Of a stretch of 64,000 nt of DNA, positions 41,871 to 42,227 are shown piece by piece. Made by a program: the position numbers and the translations under genes. The notes below the pieces were generated by a model, which saw only the letters and a program-made list of their open reading frames with translations, had not been told where the DNA came from and ran no database searches. The DNA comes from Escherichia phage UB, in sequence record MH383160; one strand, 5' to 3'. Numbering within the stretch: position 1 is the stretch's first letter; each line of letters opens with the position of its first letter.

Positions 41871-42227
41871 CTATGATAAAATCATGATAGGATATTCACT
41901 ATCGATCAGTACCTCGAATCCGAAACCTTCGTACCATTCTTTAAGATTAAAGGCGTTATCTTCTCCCGTATCGCATTCTAAAATGATACAATCTGAATCA
42001 TCGGCGGCATCAATAAAGGCATTCATTAATTCGTTACCTTCACCATTGCCCCGACTATCAGGATCAACATAAAGAGAATCAATAAACGCTACACGGTCAT
42101 AATCAAGATCCGGTGCAATGATTCCACGTTTAACAAACCAGTACTGCAATTGTGCTACTTTGCCCTGTACTTGATAGCCAGTGATCTCGCCATTGTCAGT
42201 AGTACGCGTGATATGTTGTATTCCCAT
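41871..42227 (-). CDS. GNAT-like N-acetyltransferase-fold protein (putative)
   Basis: ORF track 118 aa; VAFIDSLYVDPDSRGNGEGNELMNAFIDAA resembles acetyl-CoA-binding motif A, followed by YEGFGFEV. Confidence 0.5.
   Translation of the reverse strand: MGIQHITRTTDNGEITGYQVQGKVAQLQYWFVKRGIIAPDLDYDRVAFIDSLYVDPDSRGNGEGNELMNAFIDAADDSDCIILECDTGEDNAFNLKEWYEGFGFEVLIDSEYPIMILS

What the first reader, a model, noticed from the sequence alone, without database searches (positions are those of the whole stretch)
41871..42227. Small GNAT-like protein
The 118-aa product contains VAFIDSLYVDPDSRGNGEGNELMNAFIDAA followed by YEGFGFEV, resembling the acetyl-CoA-binding core of GNAT acetyltransferases. Short GNAT-like proteins in phage early regions are candidate host-modifying or anti-defence enzymes.
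Basis: partly seen in the sequence, partly recalled or inferred. Interest (0 to 1): 0.35.

Follow-up and report, generated by a model that had tools for sequence, protein, structure and literature searches.

The report
Small early GNAT acetyltransferase of jumbo phage
This is a real but ordinary gene: a compact acetyl-CoA-dependent acetyltransferase carried as a movable promoter-plus-gene cassette in the early region of an E. coli jumbo phage, already labelled as such in public phage genomes, with its target still unknown.

Summary
A 118-aa ORF lies at 41871..42227 on the minus strand and contains the quoted motifs. It passes the curated cut-offs of three Pfam GNAT models. An alignment-based AlphaFold model (pLDDT 94) matches only GNAT structures. 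The acetyl-CoA motif R59-x-x-G62-x-G64 and the alpha4 tyrosine Y99 are conserved across a 57-member family.

The window comes from an E. coli jumbo phage of the PBECO4/121Q group (Asteriusvirus). Identical proteins are already annotated "acetyltransferase / GNAT family N-acetyltransferase" in GenBank, so the call is not new.

What I add:
- The gene has its own perfect sigma-70 promoter and lies in the stretch equivalent to the 21.5-kb terminal repeat of a relative.
- It is a 420-bp cassette that is absent from PBECO4 and shared at ~95% identity with an unrelated 146-kb Shigella phage.
- It belongs to a compact (~115-140 aa), strongly acidic GNAT family. The same domain also occurs inside phage polyvalent proteins next to ADP-ribosyltransferase domains.
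- It has no conserved partner gene and no specific similarity to Rac, RimI or the GNAT toxins. It resembles AcrVA5 only in fold.

The most likely role is early acetylation of a host protein. The substrate is inferred, not shown. Interest is low.

The parts
42257..42284 (-). Sigma-70 consensus promoter (TTGACA, 16-nt spacer, TATAAT; 12 of 12 matches) directly upstream of the GNAT gene
   Evidence: It is one of 14 perfect TTGACA-N16-18-TATAAT sites in the window, all on the minus strand, against 0.31 expected by chance.
42236..42240 (-). Shine-Dalgarno sequence GAGGA, 8 nt upstream of the ATG
   Evidence: Read directly from the minus-strand sequence. The same 5' UTR is conserved in Shigella phage SF1-1.
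41871..42227 (-). 118-aa compact GNAT N-acetyltransferase ORF (13.3 kDa, pI 4.05)
42036..42053 (-). Codons for R59-G60-N61-G62-E63-G64, the GNAT motif A (R/Q-x-x-G-x-G/A) that forms the acetyl-CoA pyrophosphate-binding loop between beta4 and alpha3
   Evidence: In the 57-sequence family, R59 is present in 95%, G62 in 95% and G64 in 100%. The motif aligns to motif A of solved GNATs.
41916..41972 (-). Codons for D86 to F104: the conserved acidic loop after beta5 (D86, E89, N91) and the alpha4 motif B (F93, L95, W98, Y99, F104). Y99 is invariant and aligns with the conserved alpha4 Tyr of canonical GNATs.
   Evidence: Conservation: D86 95%, E89 89%, W98 96%, Y99 100%, F104 95%. HMM alignments to AAC(3)-XI and Naa50 place Y99 on their F-Y-x-x-x-G-F/L motif.
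41854..42273 (-). 420-bp presence/absence cassette (ORF plus most of its promoter) whose boundaries lie inside repeated promoter modules
   Evidence: PBECO4 aligns to window 41300-41853 and 42274-43000 with only 3 bp between the two pieces. The PBECO4 junction is a hybrid of the two promoter modules. SF1-1 shares only about 41802-42293.

Best explanation
The ORF encodes a stand-alone, catalytically competent acetyl-CoA-dependent N-acetyltransferase of a compact (~115-140 aa), strongly acidic GNAT family. Host RNA polymerase transcribes it from its own consensus sigma-70 promoter immediately after infection, from the terminal-repeat early region of the jumbo phage. The enzyme binds acetyl-CoA through the R59-x-x-G62-x-G64 loop and the beta4/beta5 splay. 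It transfers the acetyl group to an amine, with the invariant Y99 acting as general acid and the conserved D86/E89 loop contributing to catalysis or to binding a cationic substrate. The most likely substrate is a lysine or N-terminal amine of a basic host protein (transcription, translation, nucleoid or defence machinery), which would alter or inactivate that protein to the phage's benefit. Shown here: gene, predicted fold, cofactor motifs, promoter, cassette nature, family and domain fusions. Inferred: catalytic roles of individual residues, early timing, protein substrate and benefit to the phage.
For: GNAT membership: three Pfam models above their curated cut-offs. The model has pLDDT 94.2 and every top PDB match is a GNAT. 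Cofactor and catalytic motifs are conserved across 57 family members. Early, host-RNAP-dependent expression: a 12/12 sigma-70 promoter at 42284..42257. Thirteen such promoters cluster at 35-53 kb, which coincides with the stretch homologous to the annotated 21.5-kb direct terminal repeat of phage vB_Ec-M-J; that repeat contains the gene. Related Rak2-like phage CBB is described as having RpoD-like promoters before short early ORFs, some in the terminal repeat (PMC5259590). Conflict-related and protein-directed role: the same full-length domain occurs in P0064 (2284 aa, with ART-PolyVal and NUDIX) and P0017 (with PARP and ParB_N). That matches the phage polyvalent-protein GNAT family, which Iyer et al. 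2017 placed in the RimI-like clade and predicted to modify proteins (PMC5512222). Iyer et al. 2021 predict that jumbo-phage GNATs modify host proteins in the manner of Rac (PMC7824862). The best size-matched structural neighbour is the protein-lysine acetyltransferase AcrVA5 (TM 0.76 normalised to the target, rmsd 2.9 A). Accessory nature: the cassette is present in 24 phage records but absent from PBECO4, and it is shared with an unrelated phage. Purifying selection.
Against: No experiment or substrate-specific signature identifies the target. The best profile-to-PDB hit is a small-molecule enzyme, AAC(3)-XI (E=3e-7). GNAT substrates cannot be read from fold or motif A/B. The N-terminal substrate-binding half is reduced and unlike characterised enzymes, so analogy is weak. 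No timing data exist for this phage; the early assignment rests on promoter consensus and genome position. The gene is dispensable in PBECO4, so any role is accessory.
Confidence: 0.55

Rival explanations
1. It is a small-molecule N-acetyltransferase. The phage enzyme would acetylate a cationic metabolite or antibiotic-like compound, such as a polyamine or an aminoglycoside-type amine, rather than a protein.
For: The best profile hit among solved structures is aminoglycoside acetyltransferase AAC(3)-XI (E=3.1e-7). Single-sequence hits include phosphinothricin and puromycin acetyltransferases. The family is uniformly acidic (56 of 57 members have pI<5), which suits cationic small molecules. One GenBank record labels the identical protein 'PaiA acetyltransferase'. 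In a 335-kb viral contig a relative sits among metabolic-type enzymes: Amidoligase_2, a PP-loop ATPase and a GATase.
Against: All NCBIfam resistance and metabolite equivalogs score far below their cut-offs, for example AAC(6') at 18.8 bits against 140. Similarity is confined to the generic cofactor half. Fusion of the same domain to ART/PARP/ParB modules of polyvalent proteins points to macromolecular targets in genetic conflict. Acidic charge equally suits basic proteins.
Confidence: 0.2
2. It is an enzymatic anti-defence protein in the manner of AcrVA5. It would acetylate a key lysine of a specific host immune effector and so disable it. This is a special case of the best explanation.
For: AcrVA5 is the closest size-matched solved structure (6iuf_A, TMq 0.63, TMt 0.76, rmsd 2.9 A). 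Structure-only AcrVA5 look-alikes have been shown to inhibit Cas12a (PMC10799925). The gene is an accessory, horizontally exchanged cassette expressed from an early promoter, as counter-defence genes often are.
Against: No sequence-level relationship to AcrVA5: it is not among the 38 PDB hits of the family profile at E<=1e-3. To my own knowledge, E. coli does not carry Cas12a. There are no neighbouring Aca-type or known anti-defence genes. All small GNATs look alike at this TM level.
Confidence: 0.15
3. It is a translation-blocking GNAT toxin (TacT/AtaT/ItaT-like) used for host shut-off by acetylating aminoacyl-tRNA.
For: AtaT (6ajm) and a bacterial GNAT toxin (7byy) appear among the Foldseek matches.
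Against: They rank low (22nd and 34th, TMt about 0.4). The protein is about 50 residues shorter than those two toxin chains (118 aa against 172-180). No conserved adjacent partner gene exists in four independent contexts. With pI 4.05 and 23 acidic against 7 basic residues, it is ill-suited to bind tRNA. There is no PADLOC hit.
Confidence: 0.04
4. It is a non-catalytic GNAT-fold protein (pseudoenzyme) that acts by binding a host factor or CoA.
For: The N-terminal half is much reduced: a beta-hairpin plus one helix instead of beta1-alpha1-alpha2-beta2-beta3. Function is untested.
Against: Motif A (R59, G62, G64), the alpha4 Tyr (Y99, invariant) and the acidic post-beta5 loop (D86, E89) are conserved across a family of only ~30-48% identity. 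That is the pattern expected for an active enzyme. Equally small GNATs such as AcrVA5 are active (PMC10799925).
Confidence: 0.06

Closest known systems
GNAT domain of phage polyvalent proteins (family 1 of Iyer, Burroughs, Anand, de Souza & Aravind 2017, J Bacteriol; PMC5512222) and its solo versions
   Same: The whole ~110-residue domain aligns, for example to residues 578-693 of P0064, which also carries ART-PolyVal (PF18760) and NUDIX, and to residues 41-156 of P0017, which carries PARP and ParB_N. It occurs in gammaproteobacterial phages, and solo versions are described in the paper.
   Different: Here it is a free-standing early gene transcribed after entry, not a module of a large protein thought to be injected with the DNA. 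I could not check identity against the paper's exemplar accession (BAR32501.1).
AcrVA5 (PDB 6iuf), the anti-CRISPR mini-GNAT that acetylates Cas12a
   Same: A very small GNAT encoded by a mobile element. It is the best size-matched structural neighbour (TMt 0.76, rmsd 2.9 A). It is a plausible mechanistic analogue: enzymatic inactivation of a host protein by lysine acetylation.
   Different: Only 16% identity in the structural alignment and no profile-level sequence match. The host is different, and to my own knowledge E. coli has no Cas12a. No functional data exist for the phage protein.
[quoted passage not shown]
   Same: A phage-encoded GNAT that raises host protein acetylation and reprogrammes host transcription. 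Iyer et al. 2021 proposed it as the functional model for jumbo-phage GNATs.
   Different: No specific homology: hhalign probability is 7% and covers only motif A, and BLASTP gives E>5. Rac is 157 aa and lies just downstream of the phage RNA polymerase gene, overlapping the first structural gene, not in a terminal-repeat early cassette.
RimI and N-terminal acetyltransferases (Naa50/Naa60) and other canonical GNATs (Pfam PF00583)
   Same: The beta4-alpha3-beta5-alpha4-beta6-beta7 core, motif A and the motif B tyrosine are shared.
   Different: 118 aa against about 150-200 aa. The N-terminal beta1-alpha1-alpha2-beta2-beta3 arm is replaced by a hairpin plus one helix carrying family-specific G13/G17-Y18 and N29-W30-L31 motifs. 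The TIGR01575 rimI score of 20.5 is far below its cut-off of 86.4.

Membership tests
GNAT superfamily (Pfam PF00583 / PF13508 / PF13673) | Score above the curated gathering threshold of the family HMM | tested here: met
   37.2 bits against 20.7; 33.5 against 27; 26.3 against 23.6.
GNAT superfamily | Motif A: R/Q-x-x-G-x-G/A acetyl-CoA pyrophosphate-binding loop between beta4 and alpha3 | tested here: met
   R59-G-N-G62-E-G64. Family conservation is 95%, 95% and 100% respectively.
GNAT superfamily | GNAT fold: mixed beta-sheet with the beta4/beta5 splay flanked by alpha3 and alpha4 | tested here: met
   The model (pLDDT 94.2) has elements E45-54, H63-74, E80-84, H95-100, E105-108 and E114-117. 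All top Foldseek PDB and BFVD matches are GNATs at probability 1.0. This rests on a prediction, not a solved structure.
GNAT superfamily | Canonical N-terminal arm beta1-alpha1-alpha2-beta2-beta3 | tested here: not met
   Only E3-10, E13-21 and H25-33 precede beta4, and Pfam profiles match only from their position ~53 onward. Reduced N-terminal arms occur in other accepted mini-GNATs: YjdJ (5i0c, 93 aa) and AcrVA5 (6iuf, 96 aa). This therefore does not exclude superfamily membership.
GNAT superfamily | Acetyl-CoA binding and acetyl-transfer activity | not testable with these tools
   Needs biochemistry.
Polyvalent-protein GNAT family 1 (Iyer et al. 2017) | The same GNAT domain is found in phage polyvalent proteins with an ART domain in the same polypeptide, and solo versions exist | tested here: met
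   phmmer E of about 1e-9 to 1e-12 to P0064 (GNAT, ART-PolyVal, NUDIX) and P0017 (GNAT, PARP, ParB_N) over query residues ~9-117. Paper text. Direct comparison with the paper's exemplar was not possible.
Rac-like GNATs of phiKMV phages | Sequence homology to LUZ19 gp28 | tested here: not met
   hhalign probability 7.3% over 36 columns. BLASTP E>5.
RimI (TIGR01575) and resistance acetyltransferase equivalogs (AAC(6'), ArsN, Sat4) | Score above the NCBIfam equivalog cut-off | tested here: not met
   rimI 20.5 against 86.4; ArsN1a 19.9 against 170; AAC(6') 18.8 against 140.
GNAT toxin-antitoxin toxins (TacT/AtaT/KacT/ItaT) | Adjacent conserved antitoxin gene, ~160-175 aa toxin, and a basic tRNA-binding surface | tested here: not met
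   No neighbour is shared among four contexts. The protein is 118 aa with pI 4.05. The family median pI is 4.38.
AcrVA5 anti-CRISPR family | Sequence homology to AcrVA5, and a host with a type V-A CRISPR system | tested here: not met
   Fold-level match only (16% identity). AcrVA5 is absent from the profile hits at E<=1e-3. That E. coli lacks Cas12a rests on my own knowledge and was not tested.

The most novel reading that the evidence does not exclude
The ~115-aa acidic GNAT module may be a dedicated 'first-minutes' effector shared between two delivery modes: injected polyvalent proteins, and solo genes driven by consensus promoters in the first-entering terminal repeat. In E. coli it would acetylate one specific host defence, transcription or translation protein to disable it. 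That would be an AcrVA5-like enzymatic counter-defence acting on a target not yet known to be controlled by phage acetylation.
Probability: 0.2. Interest if true: 0.55.

Novelty: already known. Interest (0 to 1): 0.2.

Why it matters
Very few phage-encoded acetyltransferases have a defined target; Rac and AcrVA5 are the main examples. This one is small, easily expressed and naturally present or absent among otherwise near-identical coliphages, so it would be a convenient handle for finding a new acetylation target in E. coli. As it stands, it is a correctly recognised and already annotated accessory gene. It does not change what is known about jumbo phages or GNATs.

Tried and rejected
- A single-sequence AlphaFold model was useless (pLDDT 47.6). 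It was replaced by a model built on a 57-sequence alignment.
- The word-indexed homologue search found only near-identical copies. The exhaustive HMMER search was needed to reach the family.
- Iyer et al. 2009 on amidoligases (PMC3268129) is not held.
- I rejected Rac homology, RimI and resistance-enzyme equivalence, a toxin-antitoxin arrangement, membership of a defence system (PADLOC, no hit), functional coupling to the upstream DksA/TraR gene (retained in PBECO4 although the GNAT is missing), and a paralogue elsewhere in the window.
- The hairpin in the next gene's 5' UTR is not a significant fold (z=-1.67) and has only two copies.

Full report
**1. Observation**

The ORF listing shows an ATG-initiated ORF of 118 aa at 41871..42227 on the minus strand. 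Its translation is MGIQHITRTTDNGEITGYQVQGKVAQLQYWFVKRGIIAPDLDYDRVAFIDSLYVDPDSRGNGEGNELMNAFIDAADDSDCIILECDTGEDNAFNLKEWYEGFGFEVLIDSEYPIMILS. A GAGGA Shine-Dalgarno sequence lies 8 nt upstream of the ATG.

**2. Is it a GNAT?**

Yes.
- Three Pfam GNAT models score above their curated cut-offs: PF00583 (E=4.1e-9, 37.2 bits against 20.7), PF13508 (33.5 against 27) and PF13673 (26.3 against 23.6).
- PHROG 1249 'acetyltransferase' matches at E=9e-10.
- All matches cover only residues ~40-106 and the C-terminal half of the profiles. That half is beta4-alpha3-beta5-alpha4, which holds motifs A and B.
- A single-sequence AlphaFold model was uninformative (pLDDT 47.6).
- An exhaustive HMMER search of 1.84 billion representatives gave 290 relatives at E<=1e-3. 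Most are 117-150 aa and align over query residues ~5-117.
- A 57-sequence alignment (A1) gave a confident model: pLDDT 94.2 and pTM 0.87. Its elements are E3-10, E13-21, H25-33, E45-54, H63-74, E80-84, H95-100, E105-108 and E114-117.
- Foldseek against the PDB returns only GNATs at probability 1.0. They include Naa60, 1y9w, RimI, Naa50 and the 96-residue anti-CRISPR acetyltransferase AcrVA5. AcrVA5 (6iuf_A) is the best size-matched hit, with TM 0.76 normalised to the target and rmsd 2.9 A.
- BFVD shows that 100-125-aa GNATs are common in viruses.

**3. Anatomy of the protein**

Family-wide conservation picks out four groups of residues:
- Motif A: R59 (95%), G60, G62 (95%) and G64 (100%). This is the acetyl-CoA pyrophosphate loop.
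- An acidic loop after beta5: D86 (95%) and E89 (89%).
- Motif B on alpha4: F93, L95, W98, Y99 (100%) and F104.
- Family-specific N-terminal motifs: G13, G17-Y18 in the hairpin, and N29-W30-L31 in the single N-terminal helix (Y-W-F in this protein).

HMM alignments to solved GNATs place Y99 on the conserved alpha4 tyrosine, for example F-Y-K-K-F-G-F of Naa50. From established knowledge of GNAT enzymology, that tyrosine is the general acid in several characterised GNATs, such as serotonin N-acetyltransferase and RimI.

The canonical beta1-alpha1-alpha2-beta2-beta3 arm is reduced to a hairpin plus one helix in 44 residues. This is a 'mini-GNAT', not a truncated gene. The same ~110-residue unit is the complete domain in multidomain relatives, and the promoter lies immediately upstream.

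The protein is strongly acidic: pI 4.05, with 23 Asp+Glu against 7 Lys+Arg. So is the family: 56 of 57 members have pI<5, with a median of 4.38. That favours a cationic substrate, either a basic protein or a polyamine-type small molecule. It argues against tRNA or nucleic-acid binding.

**4. Genome and context**

Megablast identifies the window as an E. coli jumbo phage of the PBECO4/121Q group (Asteriusvirus), 92-97% identical to many ~350-kb phage records. tblastn finds the protein in 24 phage records. Eighteen are >=99% identical, and several already annotate it 'acetyltransferase', 'GNAT family N-acetyltransferase' or 'N-acetyltransferase domain-containing protein'. The identification is therefore already public.

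A perfect sigma-70 promoter (TTGACA-16-TATAAT) lies at 42284..42257. The window holds 14 such perfect promoters against 0.31 expected. All are on the minus strand, and 13 lie between 35.3 and 52.9 kb.

In phage vB_Ec-M-J the acetyltransferase (12670-13026) lies inside the annotated 21,525-bp direct terminal repeat. That repeat maps to window ~53219 down to ~33500, which is exactly the promoter-rich stretch of very short genes. For the related phage CBB, RpoD-like promoters in front of short ORFs, some in the terminal repeat, were interpreted as the early host-takeover region (PMC5259590). Early, host-RNAP-dependent expression is thus well supported by inference, but it has not been measured.

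**5. Cassette nature**

PBECO4 aligns to window 41300-41853 and 42274-43000 with only 3 bp between the two pieces. It therefore lacks exactly 41854-42273, which is the ORF plus most of its promoter. The PBECO4 junction is a hybrid: the -35 side comes from the GNAT promoter module and the -10 side from the next gene's module. This suggests gain or loss by recombination between the repeated promoter modules.

The 146-kb Shigella phage SF1-1 has different neighbouring genes and shares only ~41802-42293, at ~95% identity. A 47%-identical homologue sits in Klebsiella phage 05F01 of the Stephanstirmvirinae.

No flanking gene is shared among the window, SF1-1, 05F01 and a metagenomic contig. The upstream DksA/TraR zinc-finger gene (42291-42548; Pfam 36.8 bits against 24.9) is retained in PBECO4. 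The GNAT therefore works alone and is an accessory, horizontally exchanged early gene.

It is under purifying selection: synonymous against non-synonymous differences are 21/10 (121Q), 10/7 (SF1-1) and 3/0 (fEgEco12 and vB_Ec-M-J). There is no paralogue in the window.

**6. Family relationships and what they suggest**

The same domain occurs inside large proteins:
- P0064 (2284 aa): GNAT at 578-693, ART-PolyVal (PF18760) and NUDIX.
- P0017 (436 aa): GNAT, PARP and ParB_N, encoded on a phage contig next to two further ART-PolyVal proteins.
- P0069 (984 aa): Amidoligase_2 and GNAT.
- P0029 and P0130: with DUF5661.

The pattern matches the first of two GNAT families that Iyer et al. 2017 found in phage polyvalent proteins. 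They describe it as occurring in gammaproteobacterial (pro)phages, typically next to an ART domain, with solo versions, and as belonging to the RimI-like clade, and so predicted to modify proteins (PMC5512222). Iyer et al. [quoted passage not shown]

Direct tests show that this protein is not a Rac relative (hhalign probability 7%; BLASTP E>5). It is not a RimI or resistance-enzyme equivalog. It is not in PADLOC. It does not fit the GNAT toxins, given its size, charge and lack of a partner.

**7. Mechanism**

Most likely (confidence 0.55 for the whole chain; about 0.9 for 'active acetyl-CoA-dependent GNAT'): the protein is made within the first minutes of infection from a consensus promoter. 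It binds acetyl-CoA via R59/G62/G64 and acetylates a Lys or N-terminal amine of a basic host protein. Y99 would act as general acid, and the D86/E89 loop would contribute to catalysis or substrate binding.

Rivals:
- Small-molecule (polyamine or aminoglycoside-type) acetyltransferase, 0.2. The best PDB profile hit is AAC(3)-XI, and the acidic surface fits.
- A specifically anti-defence AcrVA5-like role, 0.15. This is a sub-case of the best explanation.
- Pseudoenzyme, 0.06.
- tRNA-acetylating toxin, 0.04.

**8. Verdict**

My additions are the promoter, the terminal-repeat location, the 420-bp cassette polymorphism, the compact acidic family and the link to polyvalent-protein GNAT domains. These sharpen the hypothesis without making it surprising. 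Interest is 0.2.

Noticed in passing
window 35264-52854, minus strand (plus one site at 9628-9657): There are 14 perfect TTGACA-N16-18-TATAAT promoters, all on the minus strand, against 0.31 expected by chance. Thirteen cluster in the stretch homologous to the 21.5-kb direct terminal repeat of phage vB_Ec-M-J. Many carry a conserved AGTACTG immediately before the -10 hexamer; in the GNAT promoter it sits immediately after the -35 instead. These repeated promoter modules appear to act as recombination sites for gene-cassette gain and loss.
   Followed up: partly
window 42291-42548, minus strand: An 85-aa DksA/TraR C4-type zinc-finger protein (PF01258, 36.8 bits against a cut-off of 24.9) lies immediately upstream of the GNAT in the early region. 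It is a candidate RNAP secondary-channel binder. The corresponding DNA is retained but unannotated in PBECO4.
   Followed up: partly
window 41811-41830 and 44357-44376, minus strand: A GGGGAAAC(N)TTCCCC stem-loop lies between a promoter and the ribosome-binding site of the gene downstream of the GNAT. It is conserved in PBECO4 and SF1-1. There are only two copies in the window, and the fold is not significant (z=-1.67).
   Followed up: yes
L016 1210-5635 (IMG/VR contig of 335 kb); protein P0069: Relatives of this GNAT are associated with Amidoligase_2. P0069 is a direct fusion. In L016 a same-strand gene run encodes Amidoligase_2, an SNase-like nuclease, an unknown 191-aa protein, the GNAT, a PP-loop ATPase and a class-I glutamine amidotransferase. 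This may be a modification or biosynthetic module in another jumbo phage.
   Followed up: partly
window 41252-41575, minus strand: A 107-aa protein two genes downstream of the GNAT matches DUF7247 (PF23905, 32.4 bits against a cut-off of 27). Its function is unknown.
   Followed up: no
window ~300-24000, minus strand: A long, tightly packed run of about 45 minus-strand ORFs of similar size (~100-200 aa), often overlapping by a few bases. It may be an expanded paralogous gene family. It was seen only in the ORF table.
   Followed up: no
GenBank MH494197.1 (phage CMSTMSU) 120963-121313; protein P0002: In this record, flagged UNVERIFIED, the GNAT gene matches in three pieces at 88% identity and is called as an 80-aa fragment. 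This is either a frameshifted pseudogene or a sequencing error.
   Followed up: no
L008 4473-10484 (metagenomic phage contig): The GNAT-PARP-ParB_N protein P0017 is flanked by two separate ART-PolyVal proteins (633 and 417 aa) and a class-I aminoacyl-tRNA-synthetase-like gene. This is a dense cluster of candidate host-modifying effectors.
   Followed up: no
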